Shown here: positions 4,986 to 8,422 of the stretch, piece by piece
Layout of the letters: every line of letters begins with the position of its first letter
How positions within the stretch are numbered: position 1 is the first letter of the stretch
Source of the DNA: an uncultured virus (IMG/VR IMGVR_UViG_3300042869_000273)
Taxonomy: Duplodnaviria; Heunggongvirae; Uroviricota; Caudoviricetes
Virus record (IMG/VR): IMGVR_UViG_3300042869_000273
DNA length: 20,000 bases
Strand: one strand, 5' to 3'
Translations under genes and position numbers: made by a program
Notes under the pieces: generated by a model
Databases searched by the model: none
Seen by the model: the letters and a program-made list of their open reading frames with translations, nothing else
What the model was told of the DNA's origin: nothing

Positions 4986-5137
4986 TTTCTTTTCCCTTTA
5001 TTCGATTGGTCGTTGTTTCTCCATTCTAAACAACTAACCTTACGATTATAAACGGGACCTACCCATGTCCATCGTACACAGACGGGAGCTTTAGGATCGA
5101 TTCCTGCTAACATTAAGGTAAGAAGAAGAGTAGACAT
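4982..5137 (-). CDS. Small putative exported protein (51 aa, MSTLLLTLMLAGIDPKAPVCVRWTWVGPVYNRKVSCLEW...)
   Basis: Manually read; ATG directly after the endolysin stop, ATGA overlap with the next gene; hydrophobic N-terminus and a Cys pair. Confidence 0.65.
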   Translation of the reverse strand: MSTLLLTLMLAGIDPKAPVCVRWTWVGPVYNRKVSCLEWRNNDQSNKGKRK

Positions 5138-5752
5138 TTACACACCTAGTACATGGAGTGCATGTGCATAGTGCTTTTTACGGTCCTCGATACCTATGGT
5201 ACCTCCGTTAATTTTTCTTGTTAATGTCTCTATATCGCCTTGATCTGCCCATTTATTTAAGTTATTAGTCTCCCAGAACCAGCAAGCACTCTGTGCAGCA
5301 CCTTCAAAGGTACCCATATACTCACTAGCTTCCTCTGCGGAAATACCAATAGACTCAGCAAACCAAAAATAATTATCTTTACCTGTTAACTGTATTAGGC
5401 CTCTACCAGAGTACCTATATCCATCTCCTGAAGCCTCATCTCCATTACCCATACGATTAGCATAAACCTTATTAGCAATAGCTTCAGGCTTCTGAGCGAA
5501 CTGTTTAGCAAGCTCATCTGTAGGGAAATACTTAGGGAATATCTTACGGAGTGTCTCCCAACGATAGTTGAGATTTTCTTTAATCATTGTGAACTCACCT
5601 GACTCATGAGCACATTGAGCAACAAATGCTGCTATACGTCTCTCATTATCAATACCATAGTCAGGTAGTAATTGTTCTAAGGCATTATGCCAGTATGTAA
5701 CATGCTTGTTCTTTGGAATAAGCTGTTTAAGTTGGTCTAGTGATAGATTCAT
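5138..5752 (-). CDS. Endolysin, glycoside hydrolase family 19
   Basis: AAFVAQCAHESG, ENLNY, IANKVYANRMGNG, GDGYRYSGRGLIQLTGKDNY, TRKINGG motifs. Confidence 0.95.
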   Translation of the reverse strand: MNLSLDQLKQLIPKNKHVTYWHNALEQLLPDYGIDNERRIAAFVAQCAHESGEFTMIKENLNYRWETLRKIFPKYFPTDELAKQFAQKPEAIANKVYANRMGNGDEASGDGYRYSGRGLIQLTGKDNYFWFAESIGISAEEASEYMGTFEGAAQSACWFWETNNLNKWADQGDIETLTRKINGGTIGIEDRKKHYAHALHVLGV

Positions 5753-6012
5753 TTAAGTGCCTCAAAAAGTTTCTTTTGTTCGGTGTACCACTCATTCCAA
5801 GCATCTAATCGAATAGCGCATATGTGATATTCAGCATAGTTATGTAGAATAGTCTTAGTAAGCTCTGATAGTTCAGGCTTAGATTCAGCCTCTTTCAACT
5901 TAGCACATGCTACAGTTAGCTGACTAGGTACCTCTGGGAACTTAGCTACAACGGGTACTGTAGTAGAGCATCCTGATATCGTTAACAATAGAATAGCTAA
6001 TAGATATTTCAT
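5749..6012 (-). CDS. o-spanin (Rz1-like outer-membrane lipoprotein)
   Basis: Lipoprotein signal with lipobox ISG-C15, Pro-containing N-region, further Cys residues; between i-spanin and endolysin. Confidence 0.8.
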   Translation of the reverse strand: MKYLLAILLLTISGCSTTVPVVAKFPEVPSQLTVACAKLKEAESKPELSELTKTILHNYAEYHICAIRLDAWNEWYTEQKKLFEALK

Positions 6013-6398
6013 TGTGTAACTGCCTTATTATGTATAGTTATAACCTCTGGAGGAATCTTACATTGATCATTGTACTTAACGATCTCACGATCAACATATT
6101 GAATCTGCACCTCAGCAGCCTCTTTAACAATCTTTTCTTTTGTTAATACTTTTGTTACTATTTTAGTATTAACTATTTCTTTCTTAGCAGCTAACTCAGC
6201 TACTTTCTTTTCTAATTCAGTAACTCTATCTTGCCATACTTTATCAGCAGTTTTATAGCCTATTAAAAATAAAGATGCAAAGATTAATCCTACAGCAATA
6301 GGTCTGTAAGTTTCAAATTCTTTTATTAGCCATCCAAACAACCCTACCATTAGGGTAATAAACAATAGCCAAGTAGGTATATAGTTTAATATAAACAT
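6009..6398 (-). CDS. i-spanin (Rz-like inner-membrane protein)
   Basis: N-terminal TM segments, coiled coil, C-terminal Cys (QCKIPPE), ATGA overlap with the lipoprotein gene. Confidence 0.75.
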   Translation of the reverse strand: MFILNYIPTWLLFITLMVGLFGWLIKEFETYRPIAVGLIFASLFLIGYKTADKVWQDRVTELEKKVAELAAKKEIVNTKIVTKVLTKEKIVKEAAEVQIQYVDREIVKYNDQCKIPPEVITIHNKAVTQ

Positions 6399-6415
6399 TT
6401 AAATCCTTTAAAAGA

Positions 6416-6491
6416 AGAGTGATAGTGGGAGTCGAACTCACATTCCGAAGCAATTAAATCCTCGATTCTACCGATTGAATTATACCACTCT
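6416..6491 (-). ncRNA. Aberrant tRNA-like element (nominal anticodon UAA, no encoded CCA); possibly a pseudo-tRNA
   Basis: Cloverleaf: acceptor AGAGTGGTA/TATCACTCT, D arm ATTC-AATCGGTA-GAAT, T arm GTGAG-TTCGACT-CCCAC; irregular anticodon arm. Confidence 0.65.
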
Positions 6492-6536
6492 ATGACGCCT
6501 TTTACTGTAGCGACAACAGCCCTAAGGTGGGATCAT
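6492..6536 (-). ncRNA. Candidate compact structured RNA (two hairpins plus pseudoknot pairing)
   Basis: ATGAT-CCC-ACCTTA-GGG-CTGT-TGTCGCT-ACAG-TAAAAGGC-GTCAT; both loops are complementary to the 3' segment AAGGCG. Confidence 0.5.
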
Positions 6537-6579
6537 GCTGAATACCTCATGAACTTAATCACTTGGCTATCAGAAGGTT

Positions 6580-6655
6580 TGGTTGCGAAGGAAGGGATCG
6601 CACCTCCGACCTCTGGGGTATGAACCCAGCGCTCTTCTAACTGAGCTACCTCGCC
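6580..6655 (-). tRNA. tRNA-Met(CAT), initiator (fMet) type
   Basis: 76-nt cloverleaf with encoded CCA; anticodon arm CTGGG-TTCATAC-CCCAG with three consecutive G-C pairs; 1:72 mismatch (G:A). Confidence 0.92.
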
Positions 6656-6664
6656 TATTTAAAT

Positions 6665-6883
6665 TTATTTTTTCTCCTTTTGGGGATACATGATATCTGA
6701 TTGTTTATCAAAACAATATTTTGTAATAGTTGTTGTATTATTTACTACCATGTTAGCCCAAGCTGTTTGAGCATCAATAAAGTCATTAGCTACTTTATTT
6801 AGGGTAGTATCAGTGATGACCTTGTTAGTAAAGTCATGCTTAAGGCTCTGAAAAGAGTTAATATAAAATTGAGGTGTAAACAT
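6665..6883 (-). CDS. Hypothetical helical protein (72 aa)
   Basis: ORF with AAGGA RBS immediately downstream of terL. Confidence 0.7.
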   Translation of the reverse strand: MFTPQFYINSFQSLKHDFTNKVITDTTLNKVANDFIDAQTAWANMVVNNTTTITKYCFDKQSDIMYPQKEKK

Positions 6884-6892
6884 ATAGTTCCT

Positions 6893-8218
6893 TTAAAACA
6901 TAAAACCTTTAGTAACTGTCTTAGTTCCTGAACGAACAGGGAATAAGTATTCAACAGCATATCTTAGTGCATCTGTCCAATGTTCTACATTTTCAGACTT
7001 AGATATTTGTGCTGTGTTTGGATTGTTCTCAACCCATACAGTTCTTTCAAGGGATCGAATTGTGTGTTCTGCTCGTGGATGAATATACATGTCTATATCA
7101 CCATTAGCATTCTTAAACTTACGATTAACAGCAGCTACAGAGTCTACAATAGGAGGAGCAGCTCTATGCGCTCTACAGACAATGCCATAGCTCTCTAAGA
7201 TAGAGAAATCAGTGGCTCCAGCAACAGCACTAGTCTTTCTAGCACGTCCTGCAGGGTCTGGATAAGCAAATATCCTGTGTCCCTTGTCTTTAAATTGTGT
7301 CTTAAGCTTCTTAGCTAATTGTTCGGTATCGAGTACATTCTGCATGTCCTCTAAGATATGTATTTGGCCAGCTCTAACAGCAAATACTACTGCAGCCATA
7401 ATACCAATGTTAAAGTCGATAGCTACATGCACATCTTCTTTGTTTGCTGTCTCTACATTGAAGTAAGGGAGATCAGCAGTAACATGGGTTCTACGGTCAA
7501 ACATGTAGAATACTTTAGCACCAGAGTCTTCAAATGAACACTCATACTCTCGGGCAAACTTCATAGGATCAATCAGACGCTTAGTCCTCTCGATCTCTTG
7601 TACAGATAAAAAGGGAGAGTCTCTGTAAGTATATCTAAAGGTTTTCCAACGATTATCCATTGTCTCAAAGTTAGTCATGTCATAAAAGTAGTTCATACCT
7701 TTAGGAGTACCAATAATGAGAGCCTTATGATTACCTGCCCAACGTGTAGTCATAGCAGGTTGAATGATAGACTCCCAAGACTCTTTAAGTCCTGGTTGAC
7801 CTGTCCAGTCAGAGACCTCATCCCCAACAACAAAGTATTGACCTGATCCTCGCATCCGTTCAGATGCTTCATAAGACCATAACTTAAGCTTAACATTATT
7901 TGGAAACCAGAATGTTCCAGCTGTCTGGGAAGACTTTTCAGCATAATCCTCTAGACCTAAGTTATAGGCTAATAGTGGCCAATAAATATCTAATGACTGT
8001 TGATATGTAGGGCAGATGATAGACACATTCTTATTAGGAACATCTTCATCCATCTCTAGCAGCTCATGCACAGCCATTGTAGCGGCAACACTAGCAAGGT
8101 AACTCTTACCAAAGCCTCGTGAGGCTACTGTAGCAGCATATCTTGTGCCGCCCTTCTCAGAGAATAAATACTTTAATACTTCTGACTGACCTCTGTGTAA
8201 TTTAATTTCATTTGACAT
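6893..8218 (-). CDS. terL: Terminase large subunit
   Basis: Q motif (LHRGQ), Walker A SRGFGKS, Walker B FVVGDE, coupling motif GTPKG, nuclease acidic residues AIDFN, YPDPAG, HWTDALRY. Confidence 0.96.
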   Translation of the reverse strand: MSNEIKLHRGQSEVLKYLFSEKGGTRYAATVASRGFGKSYLASVAATMAVHELLEMDEDVPNKNVSIICPTYQQSLDIYWPLLAYNLGLEDYAEKSSQTAGTFWFPNNVKLKLWSYEASERMRGSGQYFVVGDEVSDWTGQPGLKESWESIIQPAMTTRWAGNHKALIIGTPKGMNYFYDMTNFETMDNRWKTFRYTYRDSPFLSVQEIERTKRLIDPMKFAREYECSFEDSGAKVFYMFDRRTHVTADLPYFNVETANKEDVHVAIDFNIGIMAAVVFAVRAGQIHILEDMQNVLDTEQLAKKLKTQFKDKGHRIFAYPDPAGRARKTSAVAGATDFSILESYGIVCRAHRAAPPIVDSVAAVNRKFKNANGDIDMYIHPRAEHTIRSLERTVWVENNPNTAQISKSENVEHWTDALRYAVEYLFPVRSGTKTVTKGFMF

Positions 8219-8422
8219 TTAAACGTATAAGTCTACACTATCCTTAGTTAAGACACCTTTTTTATTCTTTGCATTAATCTCTTCAAGTTTTCGATAGAAC
8301 TCTGCTATCTCCATTCTAGCTTGGAGGCCTTCTCGGAATACTTTATCAGAAGCTTCCTTGAGTGCATTGTATTGTTCTTGGTACTTCTTTATGCTGTATT
8401 CAGCAGATGCTTGGACTCTCAT
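8219..8422 (-). CDS. Hypothetical coiled-coil protein
   Basis: 67-aa ORF with AAGGA RBS, stop abuts the terL start. Confidence 0.7.
   Translation of the reverse strand: MRVQASAEYSIKKYQEQYNALKEASDKVFREGLQARMEIAEFYRKLEEINAKNKKGVLTKDSVDLYV

What the first reader, a model, noticed from the sequence alone, without database searches (positions are those of the whole stretch)
6492..6536. Compact double-pseudoknot-like RNA wedged between a tRNA and a tRNA-like element
Seen: the 45-nt minus-strand sequence AUGAU CCC ACCUUA GGG CUGU UGUCGCU ACAG UAAAAGGC GUCAU. It can form two adjacent hairpins (CCC/GGG; CUGU/ACAG) closed by AUGAU/GUCAU. Loop 1 (CUU or CCUU) and loop 2 (CGC) are complementary to consecutive parts of the 3' strand (AAG, GCG). 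It is GC-richer than the surrounding sequence, and its 3' end abuts the first base of the tRNA-like element. Known: phage tRNA clusters can carry small self-cleaving ribozymes (HDV-like theta ribozymes) and orphan ncRNAs. Inference: an uncharacterised ribozyme, nuclease-blocking element or regulatory RNA. I have an unverified recollection of similar CCCACCUUAGGG...AAGGCGUC sequences in aquatic phage intergenic regions.
Basis: partly seen in the sequence, partly recalled or inferred. Interest (0 to 1): 0.75.

Follow-up and report, generated by a model that had tools for sequence, protein, structure and literature searches.

The report
Portable pseudoknot RNA module beside phage tRNA-like gene
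The flagged 45 bases hold a real, very tightly conserved folded RNA unit (a hairpin plus one pseudoknot) that recurs in hundreds of uncultured water phages, matches no catalogued RNA family, and here sits on its own in front of an odd tRNA-like gene; what it does is still unknown.

Summary
The sequence is as quoted. Its conserved core is 39 nt (window 6493-6531, minus strand): hairpin H1 (CCC/GGG, loop ACCUUA) followed by an H-type pseudoknot (stem CUGU/ACAG; loop GUCGC pairs with GCGUC; A-rich third loop). It is the longest invariant run in a motif-blind alignment of 19 related phage loci (39/39 invariant; tRNA-like neighbour 36/75) and is single-copy per genome.

It belongs to a large RNA family absent from Rfam 15. 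In most members it is the 5' module of a pseudoknot-chain leader before phage hsp20. Here, and in a few other lineages, it stands alone in a tRNA cluster, 1-2 nt before a non-canonical tRNA-like gene, upstream of the lysis genes.

Covariation supports both hairpins and the loop-2/tail pairing. No ribozyme family fits, and self-cleavage is untested. Close relatives carry the tRNA-like gene without the module, so the module is an optional, portable unit.

Function is unknown. My best guess (about 0.3) is a cis-acting structural cap that protects or marks the RNA that follows it.

This scan has met the same family before on other DNA (five earlier findings).

The parts
6493..6531 (-). Conserved 39-nt core (module 1): hairpin H1 plus an H-type pseudoknot
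   Evidence: It is invariant in 27 of 27 IMG/VR contigs under three complementary patterns. It is the longest invariant run in a motif-blind clade alignment. The family covariance model R1 scores it 52.2 bits, E 4e-14, and it is the only copy in the window (the window row was in the seed).
6520..6531 (-). Hairpin H1: CCC (6529-6531) pairs with GGG (6520-6522); the loop is ACCUUA
   Evidence: The outer pair C-G switches to U-A consistently in 119 of 119 loci. The helix is 95.6% paired in A1. Loop bases CCUU are invariant in 79 of 79 aligned members.
6505..6519 (-). Pseudoknot stem S1 (CUGU 6516-6519 with ACAG 6505-6508) and its loop UGUCGCU (6509-6515)
   Evidence: Sixteen variants occur among 119 loci. 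Of 72 distinct sequences, 62 have a contiguous stem of 3-5 pairs, and the stem types form a covariation series.
6494..6498 (-). Pseudoknot strand S2b, GCGUC. It pairs with loop bases GUCGC (6510-6514), with a U.U mismatch at 6513/6495
   Evidence: helix 3: GC 98/98; AU 59, GU 3, U.U-type 36; CG 51, UG 43; GC 97; CG 49, UG 46, UA 1. In one search the pairing is 5/5 in 32 and 4/5 in 29 of 62 sequences.
6499..6504 (-). A-rich third loop (UAAAAG) of the pseudoknot
   Evidence: It varies in sequence and length across the family and is replaced by an inserted hairpin in some members.
6538..6573 (-). Separate 36-nt three-step hairpin 5' of the module
   Evidence: There are 10 distinct variants, all with 11 of 11 pairs, and 3 pairs show compensatory changes. 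It is absent in some relatives.
6580..6655 (-). tRNA-Met(CAT) with encoded CCA
   Evidence: ARAGORN; Rfam tRNA 54 bits. It is present in only some relatives.
6416..6491 (-). Non-canonical tRNA-like gene. The cloverleaf is 6417-6489, and the stem can extend to 9 bp (6483-6491 with 6416-6424)
   Evidence: Rfam tRNA 39.3 bits; ARAGORN calls it Leu(TAA). The anticodon arm is swapped among close relatives. The 9-bp stem appears in the MFE fold.
6009..6409 (-). First gene of the lysis cassette (spanin-like), with Shine-Dalgarno AAAGGA at 6404-6409
   Evidence: ORF list; PHROG spanin-type matches. The SD is complementary to the CCUU of the H1 loop, which is read directly from the sequence and is an inference only.

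Best explanation
What it is (confidence about 0.9). Window 6493-6531 (minus strand) is a stand-alone copy of 'module 1' of a large, uncatalogued RNA family of uncultured aquatic phages. Module 1 is a 3-bp hairpin with the invariant loop ACCUU(A), immediately followed by a classic H-type pseudoknot: stem 1 of 3-5 bp, a 1-2 nt first loop, a 5-position stem 2 (GNYGY:GCGUC), and an A-rich third loop.

In most members, module 1 is followed by a second pseudoknotted module and a ROSE-like hairpin before hsp20. Here the transcript order is tRNA-Met, a covarying hairpin, module 1, one base, then a non-canonical tRNA-like gene, then the lysis genes. All are on the minus strand in one direction.

How it most likely works (inferred, about 0.3). 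It folds on its own in the polycistronic late/tRNA transcript. It stacks on the helix that starts 0-2 nt after it. It then acts in cis as a compact 5'-proximal cap that shields or marks the RNA body behind it. That body is the tRNA-like RNA and/or the lysis mRNA here, and the hsp20 leader elsewhere. The cap would work against 5'-end-dependent decay or processing, probably through an unknown partner that reads the invariant loop and junction bases.

Shown: conservation, fold, modularity and contexts. Inferred: transcription as one RNA, stacking, protection and the partner.
For: Identity and fold:
- The core is invariant in 27 of 27 IMG/VR contigs under three complementary patterns.
- In a motif-blind alignment it is 39/39 invariant, against 36/75 for the tRNA-like gene, 359/612 for the endolysin gene and 194/390 for the spanin gene. 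The expected number of invariant runs of this length is 2e-4.
- In A1 (98 distinct sequences), 91.9% of cells are paired, against 77.2% in shuffles (0 of 500 reach it) and at most 42% when partners are slid.
- The H1 outer pair covaries in 119 of 119 loci. Stem-1 types form a covariation series. Stem 2 is 91.4% paired.
- Rfam has no family for it.

Autonomy of the module:
- The same module precedes different bodies: module 2 (most loci), tRNA-like elements (the window clade, L172/L272/L458 and a long-stemmed element in L432), another 3' domain (L437, L439, L449), and plain hairpins (L169).
- L427 and L429 carry the hairpin and the tRNA-like gene without the module.

Cap reading:
- In 31 loci an exact late-promoter-like TATAAATA ends 9 or 13 nt before H1. 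In 7 loci a tRNA 3' end lies 3-5 nt before it. Both imply a new RNA 5' end just upstream.
- A helix begins 0-2 nt after the module in every context seen.
- From my own recall, not from a call: 5'-terminal structures are known to stabilise bacterial mRNAs against RNase E.
Against: - A mere protective structure would not need near-invariant loop and junction bases.
- In about 73 of 239 loci another module ('module 0') lies upstream, so module 1 is not always 5'-terminal. In the window a 36-nt hairpin precedes it.
- No RNA ends could be observed. The only RNA runs available are assembled contigs.
- The thermodynamic fold is not better than shuffles.
- The module is optional in close relatives, so it is not essential for the tRNA-like gene.
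Confidence: 0.45

Rival explanations
1. Regulatory aptamer or anti-Shine-Dalgarno device. The module binds a ligand or protein, or its ACCUUA loop pairs with the ribosome-binding site of the next gene (AAAGGA at 6404-6409 here; AGGAG-type before hsp20). Either way it tunes translation of the lysis or hsp20 genes.
For: Its size and architecture (a roughly 40-nt hairpin plus an H-type pseudoknot with an A-rich loop) resemble small pseudoknot aptamers; this is my own recall. Loop and junction bases are near-invariant. CCUU is complementary to the AAGG of the downstream SD in all clade variants seen. In full-length members the same loop is complementary to the AAG(G)U loop of the last hairpin of module 2. 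L169 reuses ACCUUA next to its SD.
Against: There is no covariation for any pairing of the H1 loop, because both sides are invariant. A tRNA-like gene of about 75 nt lies between the module and the SD here. The downstream genes share no metabolic theme (hsp20, spanin, small ORFs). No alternative terminator/antiterminator pairing was seen.
Confidence: 0.2
2. Small self-cleaving ribozyme that trims neighbouring tRNA or tRNA-like ends. This would be a functional analogue of the HDV-like theta ribozymes, which sit with their cleavage site at phage tRNA 3' ends.
For: In 7 loci the module starts 3-5 nt after a tRNA CCA end. It is a compact pseudoknotted RNA with many invariant bases. Theta ribozymes set a precedent for ribozymes beside phage tRNAs (PMC10879173; passages read).
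Against: No ribozyme family of Rfam 15 matches at E<=10 on the window stretch or E<=1 on 26 family loci. By inspection, HDV-like topology cannot be threaded: there is no P1 of 6-7 bp starting at a G, and no P2 partner. In at least 31 loci it sits just after a promoter-like motif, where tRNA trimming makes no sense.
Confidence: 0.07
3. Trans-acting decoy or small RNA. The module, alone or fused to the tRNA-like body, is a stable RNA that titrates a host factor. Candidates are an RNA-binding protein, a nuclease of a defence system, or SD-like sequences, given the loop's likeness to an anti-SD.
For: It is portable across unrelated phage types, from 51 kb to 353 kb contigs, and is single-copy. It is fused to tRNA-like bodies whose anticodon arm is swapped between close relatives or replaced by a plain hairpin. 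In G002 and G003 that tRNA-like gene is the only tRNA-family hit in a complete genome. T4 sets a precedent for stable late RNAs of unknown function, RNAC and RNAD (PMC9697503; passages read); that they lie in the T4 tRNA region is my recall.
Against: No partner is known. Nothing shows that the RNA accumulates. The module also occurs as part of an mRNA leader, which suggests a cis role.
Confidence: 0.12
4. DNA-level element. It would be a recombination or cassette-exchange anchor, or a protein-binding site, and its invariance would come from homogenisation rather than RNA function.
For: The 5' edge of the module is a hot spot where cassettes differ: empty, tRNA-Pro, or a SET-domain ORF. The window clade and the unrelated L169 share an identical 39-mer, although the wider family tolerates many variants. 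Inverted repeats would also be kept by a dimeric DNA binder.
Against: G.U intermediates in stems (CUGU/ACGG; C-to-U opposite G in stem 2: UG 43 and 46 of 98) keep pairing only on this strand as RNA. The pseudoknot pairing has no DNA rationale. It is single-copy per genome. The central 22-mer is absent from 185,579 prokaryotic species genomes.
Confidence: 0.06
5. Functionless remnant. It would be the 5' stump of a full-length hsp20-type leader RNA, left behind when a tRNA-like gene replaced the rest.
For: Module 2, the ROSE-like hairpin and hsp20 are all missing here. HSP20 is found in 0 of 3 complete clade genomes and in 2 of 2 T4-sized genomes tested.
Against: The stump is the best-conserved stretch of the locus: 39/39 invariant while its neighbours vary. 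The same truncation point (...GGCGUCA) recurs in separate lineages with different bodies.
Confidence: 0.08

Closest known systems
Pseudoknot-chain leader RNA before phage hsp20
   Same: The window core is the same module in both sequence and fold. R1 scores 52.2 bits for the window and 36-67 bits for other members.
   Different: Here module 2, the ROSE-like hairpin and hsp20 are absent. A tRNA-like gene follows instead.
HDV-like theta ribozymes beside phage tRNAs (PMC10879173; passages read)
   Same: Both are small pseudoknotted RNAs next to phage tRNA genes. In some relatives the module begins a few nt after a tRNA 3' end.
   Different: There is no Rfam HDV-type hit, and no P1/P2 nested double-pseudoknot topology. 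It also occurs right after promoter-like motifs. Cleavage is untested.
Classic H-type pseudoknots with an A-rich third loop (viral frameshift pseudoknots, small pseudoknot riboswitch aptamers, the T4 gene 32 leader pseudoknot). These examples are named from my own recall, not from a call.
   Same: The layout matches: stem 1 of 3-5 bp, a first loop of 1-2 nt, a 5-position stem 2, and an A-rich loop crossing stem 1.
   Different: It is not inside a coding frame. No ligand or protein partner is known. An extra invariant-loop hairpin precedes it.
T4 RNAC and RNAD, late stable RNAs of unknown function (PMC9697503; passages read). That they lie in the T4 tRNA region is my recall.
   Same: Both are phage-encoded non-coding RNAs associated with tRNA genes, with no known job.
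   Different: No sequence similarity was found. blastn of the window stretch against 50,697 phage records hit only tRNA genes, and a full-length member hit nothing. No structural comparison was done.
ROSE-like RNA thermometers (Rfam ROSE_3, RF02523)
   Same: Full-length relatives end in a hairpin with weak ROSE_3 likeness: 22.7-27.6 bits against a gathering score of 43.
   Different: That part is absent from the window. Module 1 itself has no ROSE likeness.
Upstream pseudoknot domain plus tRNA-like structure of plant RNA virus 3' ends (named from recall)
   Same: Both place a pseudoknot unit directly 5' of a tRNA-shaped element.
   Different: This is a DNA phage, the position is internal to an operon, no CCA end is encoded, and no homology was shown. 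The Tymo_tRNA-like model gave only chance-level hits, 18 bits against a gathering score of 40, and those fall on ordinary tRNAs.

Membership tests
Phage hsp20-leader pseudoknot-chain RNA family (uncatalogued), module 1 | Hairpin H1 with an ACCUU-containing loop | tested here: met
   Window 6520-6531. CCUU is invariant in 79 of 79 aligned members. H1 covaries.
Phage hsp20-leader pseudoknot-chain RNA family (uncatalogued), module 1 | H-type pseudoknot: a 3-5 bp stem directly after H1, with its loop pairing to GCGUC | tested here: met
   The window has CUGU/ACAG and GUCGC:GCGUC, which is 4 of 5 pairs. The same U.U variant occurs in 36 of 98 members. R1 scores 52.2 bits (the window was in the seed).
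Phage hsp20-leader pseudoknot-chain RNA family (uncatalogued), full-length form | Module 2: helix Pa, pseudoknot Pb, and hairpin Pc with an AAG(G)UAA loop | tested here: not met
   In the window, GGCGUCA is followed by the tRNA-like gene. Module 2 is well supported elsewhere: Pa 99%, Pb 99.7%, Pc 100% paired.
Phage hsp20-leader pseudoknot-chain RNA family (uncatalogued), full-length form | A ROSE-like hairpin and an hsp20 gene downstream | tested here: not met
   HSP20 (PF00011) is found in 0 of 3 complete clade genomes and in 2 of 2 T4-sized genomes. The next gene here is spanin-like.
HDV-like / theta self-cleaving ribozymes | Match to Rfam HDV-type covariance models | tested here: not met
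   No such hit at E<=10 on 6380-6700, nor at E<=1 on 26 family loci. Whether Rfam 15 holds a theta-specific model was not checked.
HDV-like / theta self-cleaving ribozymes | Nested double pseudoknot: P1 (6-7 bp from G1) and P2 enclosing P3/P1.1 | tested here: not met
   By inspection of the sequence and the family alignment, there is no complement for a P1 starting at the 5' G and no P2 3' strand. No descriptor search was run.
HDV-like / theta self-cleaving ribozymes | Site-specific self-cleavage that depends on a catalytic cytosine | not testable with these tools
   This needs in vitro transcription and a cleavage assay.
tRNA (reading the whole 89-nt spacer 6491-6579 as a degenerate long-arm tRNA) | Cloverleaf recognised by a tRNA model, with a conserved acceptor pairing | tested here: not met
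   No tRNA hit in the spacer at E<=10, and ARAGORN finds none. The putative acceptor 5' strand varies without compensation, and the two halves are separated by a tRNA-Pro or a 500-nt ORF in relatives.
H-type pseudoknot (structural class) | Stem 1, a short loop 1, stem 2 formed by the hairpin loop with downstream bases, and loop 3 crossing stem 1 | tested here: met
   Loop 1 is U or UU in 46 of 62 sequences. This is comparative support only; there is no probing.

The most novel reading that the evidence does not exclude
Module 1 is a portable 'head' domain that phages graft onto different RNA bodies: a second pseudoknot module, tRNA-shaped elements with meaningless anticodon arms, and other hairpin domains. 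In this reading it is a new class of RNA device. One option is a bacterial-virus counterpart of nuclease-resistant or factor-recruiting viral RNA caps, so that the module plus tRNA-like chimera accumulates as a decoy for a host tRNA-directed or 5'-end-directed nuclease. The other option is a new small ribozyme.
Probability: 0.15. Interest if true: 0.85.

Novelty: new variant of a known kind. Interest (0 to 1): 0.6.

Why it matters
A roughly 40-nt RNA unit is kept almost letter-perfect across unrelated uncultured phages, from about 50 kb to over 350 kb contigs, and is reused in front of different RNA bodies. That points to a specific molecular partner or activity that is not yet known. It adds a well-supported orphan family to the short list of phage structured RNAs.

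The stand-alone copy in this window is the smallest natural context for testing what the module does by itself. The whole construct is about 125 nt: module plus tRNA-like element.

If the module protects or marks RNA ends, it could also be useful as a compact stabilising tag. If it is catalytic or a decoy, it would open a new chapter in phage tRNA-cluster biology.

Tried and rejected
1. Whole 89-nt spacer as a degenerate long-arm tRNA. Rejected: there is no tRNA model hit, the acceptor pairing is not kept, and the two halves are separable.

2. Repeated phage promoter or operator. Rejected: there is one copy in the window and one per complete genome. The sigma-70 scan shows nothing at the site.

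3. Copy of a host sequence (attachment core, CRISPR repeat mimic). The central 22-mer has 0 hits in genome contigs. Only that 22-mer was tried, so shorter shared pieces are not excluded.

4. Known phage isolates. blastn of 6300-6760 against 50,697 records hit only tRNA genes in 27 records. A full-length family member had no match.

5. Expression evidence. Twenty-two metatranscriptome runs hold parts of 5100-8300, all as assembled contigs. I laid four of them. Contigs from RNA libraries cover the tRNA/module stretch and show the relatives' variants: a joint skipping 6530-6575, and loose ends at 6536 that match the ORF-bearing variant. RNA libraries can contain DNA and contigs show no ends, so this is inconclusive for transcription or cleavage.

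6. See the observation check.

7. HDV-like threading by eye failed. No formal descriptor search was run.

8. Relatives with 73-80% identical endolysin (60 loci, L076-L135). They have 0 ARAGORN tRNAs and only chance-level blastn matches to the motif, so the tRNA/module cluster is clade-specific.

9. One search used a mistyped pattern for the tRNA-like T arm, with one base too many. It therefore found only 3 loci of a variant form, two of which happened to be informative. How widely the tRNA-like gene occurs without the module was therefore not surveyed.

10. Literature. Searches found no description of this RNA. I saw listings and abstracts only, except for passages of PMC10879173 and PMC9697503. 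Subscription journals are not covered.

Full report
**Observation.** ARAGORN and Rfam place a tRNA-Met(CAT) at 6580-6655 and a weak tRNA-like gene at 6416-6490 / 6417-6489 (39.3 bits; 'Leu, TAA'). Nothing else in the window reaches an Rfam gathering score. A permissive search of 6380-6700 at E<=10 adds nothing.

By energy alone the 45-mer is unremarkable: -8.6 kcal/mol, z -0.15, and 82 of 200 shuffles fold at least as well. The core is GC-richer (0.54) than the window (0.36).

All long ORFs of the window run on the minus strand. The neighbours are a large terminase (6893-8218) and a small ORF upstream. Downstream are spanin-like genes (6009-6398, 5749-6012), a GH19-type endolysin (5138-5752), PhoH and the portal.

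**Conservation in the phage clade.** An exact 27-mer, a pattern with all stem positions free, and a pattern with all loop positions free each found the same 27 IMG/VR contigs. IMG/VR therefore holds no single-substitution variant of the 39-nt core CCCACC...GGCGUCA (window 6493-6531).

I also fetched loci through the endolysin, that is, blind to the motif. The 21 loci with at least 93% identical endolysin all carry the core. In an alignment of the 19 distinct ones, the core is the longest invariant run, 39 nt against 23 nt for the next. It is 39/39 invariant, while the adjacent tRNA-like gene is 36/75, the endolysin gene 359/612 and the spanin gene 194/390. Under independence, 2e-4 such runs are expected.

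The 60 loci with 73-80% identical endolysin have no ARAGORN tRNA and no motif. The core is single-copy in the window and in complete 77-80 kb genomes.

Around the core the locus is modular:
- tRNA-Met is present or absent.
- A 36-nt hairpin (window 6538-6573) is present or absent.
- Between that hairpin and the core, relatives have nothing, a tRNA-Pro, or a SET-domain ORF.

**A much larger family.** They carry 16 versions of that hairpin. In most of them the core continues into a conserved 60-nt second module and then a hairpin, a ribosome-binding site and a gene.

In five 130-170 kb genomes the element is single-copy. In three of them the next ORF is an alpha-crystallin-type small heat-shock protein; in the other two a 67-69 aa ORF comes first. 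PF00011 confirms hsp20 about 0.3-0.5 kb downstream in the two large genomes tested.

It showed 72 different versions of the 45 nt upstream, which gives a view of module 1 not biased by its own sequence.

No Rfam 15 family matches 26 such loci at E<=1, apart from tRNAs and weak ROSE_3 likeness of the last hairpin (22.7-27.6 bits against a gathering score of 43). blastn of a full-length member against 50,697 phage records found nothing.

The scan's own notes show that this family was met before on other DNA. It was described there as a pseudoknotted leader of phage hsp20, and one note says a module also occurs alone in tRNA clusters. My results were reached independently and agree.

**Structure.** On 98 distinct sequences (A1) a model with seven helices is 91.9% paired. 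Column shuffles give 77.2% (0 of 500 reach the observed value), and sliding the 3' partners gives at most 42%.

Module 2 is very well supported:
- Pa is 99% paired.
- The pseudoknot Pb is 99.7% paired, with double changes at all 4 pairs.
- Pc is 100% paired, with double changes at all 4 pairs.

Module 1, which is the window's core:
- H1 is 95.6% paired. Its outer pair switches C-G to U-A with no exception in 119 of 119 loci (11 U-A, 108 C-G).
- The stem of the second hairpin forms a covariation series: CCGU/ACGG 26, CUGU/ACGG 13, CCGUU/AACGG 7, CUGUU/AACGG 5, CUGU/ACAG 4, and others. Of 72 distinct sequences, 62 have a contiguous 3-5 bp stem. The other 10 have a 3-bp stem with a terminal mismatch.
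- The loop of that hairpin pairs with GCGUC: G-C 98/98; A-U 59, G.U 3, U.U 36; C-G 51, U.G 43; G-C 97; C-G 49, U.G 46, U-A 1.

The layout is that of a textbook H-type pseudoknot: a 1-2 nt first loop, a one-base second loop and an A-rich third loop. The window has the U.U variant.

The loop is invariant, while the partner A31 is A in only 55 of 98 sequences (A32 in 89, G33 in 96). The linker is replaced by an inserted hairpin in some members. The closing helix AUGAU/GUCAU is not conserved, and it competes with the pseudoknot.

A covariance model of module 1 (R1) scores the window copy 52.2 bits, and other members score 36-67 bits. The window sequence was in the seed alignment.

**The module is autonomous.** Besides the window clade, it occurs without module 2 in several places:
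- L172, L272 and L458: a different phage lineage, also in front of a tRNA-like gene, with the compensated U-A pair.
- L169: directly after a tRNA-like CCA end, followed by two hairpins and a small gene.
- L432: three bases after a tRNA-Ala CCA end, and one base before a long-stemmed structured element (-28.1 kcal/mol, z -3.84) that Rfam does not call a tRNA.
- L437, L439 and L449: followed by yet another 3' domain.

L427 and L429 are relatives of the L172 lineage. They have the same upstream hairpin and the tRNA-like gene but no module. The module and the tRNA-like gene are therefore independent units, and the module is optional.

The complete 77-80 kb clade genomes have no hsp20 (0 of 3). In G002 and G003 the tRNA-like gene beside the module is the only tRNA-family hit.

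Across 239 loci (the two scans may overlap), I tallied what lies upstream:
- An exact TATAAATA, which I recall as the T4-type late promoter consensus, ends 9 nt (18 loci) or 13 nt (13 loci) before H1.
- A tRNA 3' end lies 3-5 nt before H1 in 7 loci.
- Another structured module lies upstream in about 73 loci.

In every context a helix starts 0-2 nt after the module.

**Mechanism.** What is shown is a conserved, autonomously folding hairpin-plus-pseudoknot unit that phages place at or near the start of different RNA bodies.

My preferred reading (about 0.3) is a cis-acting cap. It would stack on the following helix and protect or mark the downstream RNA at a freshly made 5' end, probably through an unknown partner that reads the invariant loop and junction bases. 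The need for such a partner is inferred from the excess of sequence conservation over what a fold alone requires.

Rivals are an anti-SD or aptamer-type regulator, a trans-acting decoy, a ribozyme, a DNA-level recombination anchor, and a dead remnant. G.U intermediates argue for RNA over DNA. The invariance argues against a remnant. Ribozyme models and HDV-like topology do not fit, but cleavage was not testable.

The RNA-seq resources gave only assembled contigs, so no transcript ends could be read.

**Comparison and novelty.** The closest relatives are the hsp20-leader RNAs of the same uncatalogued family. The window copy meets the defining features of module 1 but lacks module 2, the ROSE-like hairpin and hsp20.

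It works, at most, 'like' three known things:
- Theta ribozymes, in lying beside phage tRNAs (PMC10879173; passages read).
- T4 RNAC and RNAD, as orphan phage RNAs (PMC9697503; passages read).
- Pseudoknot-plus-tRNA-like ends of plant RNA viruses (recalled).

It is a member of none of these. My three literature searches found no description (listings and abstracts only).

I rate it a new variant of a known kind: a structured, pseudoknotted phage RNA of unknown function. It is of real interest to RNA biologists. The interest is tempered by the unknown function and by the fact that this scan had already met the family.

Noticed in passing
window 6538-6573 (-): A separate 36-nt three-step hairpin (CUGAUAGCC...GGUAUUCAG) lies between tRNA-Met and the module. 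It has 10 distinct variants, all with 11 of 11 pairs, and 3 pairs show compensatory changes. It is absent in some relatives, and the L172 lineage has an unrelated hairpin at the same place.
   Followed up: partly
window 6416-6491 (-); relatives L056-L075, L085: The anticodon arm of the tRNA-like gene is swapped between very close relatives: ARAGORN calls Leu(TAA) or Stop(TTA), or makes no call. The loops are non-canonical. The stem can extend to 9 bp and no CCA is encoded. In complete genomes G002 and G003 it is the only tRNA-family hit. It may be a tRNA-shaped RNA rather than a decoder.
   Followed up: partly
L085 1154-1720 (also L021, L023, L027, L168, L171, L173-L177): In some relatives an ORF with SET-domain-like motifs (my reading of the translation; it was not scanned against Pfam) is inserted exactly between the 5' hairpin and the module. 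In others a tRNA-Pro(TGG) sits there. This is a cassette insertion hot spot.
   Followed up: no
L437, L439, L449: The module is followed by a third kind of 3' domain: a GGCGGCUGCUGCC hairpin and then a conserved AAAGUGAGCAUUU stretch. This occurs in contigs of 37-250 kb and is not characterised.
   Followed up: no
L432 (51.5 kb contig): The order is two tRNAs, then the module 3 nt after a tRNA-Ala CCA end, then one base later a long-stemmed structured element (-28.1 kcal/mol, z -3.84). That element has a T-arm-like motif but no Rfam tRNA hit.
   Followed up: partly
about 73 of 239 family loci, e.g. L185, L191, L197: A further conserved structured unit ('module 0', containing GGGAUGGGAA) often precedes module 1 in the hsp20 leaders. 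I did not analyse it here.
   Followed up: no
G007 39.8-49 kb: In one 170-kb genome the leader RNA and hsp20 lie about 1 kb upstream of a cluster of 28 tRNA-family hits. In G006 the tRNA cluster is more than 50 kb away.
   Followed up: no
window 6660-6674 (-) and relatives: The string AAATAAATTTAAATA directly precedes the first element of the tRNA/module cluster in all clade variants, whichever element comes first. It could be a promoter-like or boundary signal. I did not test it.
   Followed up: no
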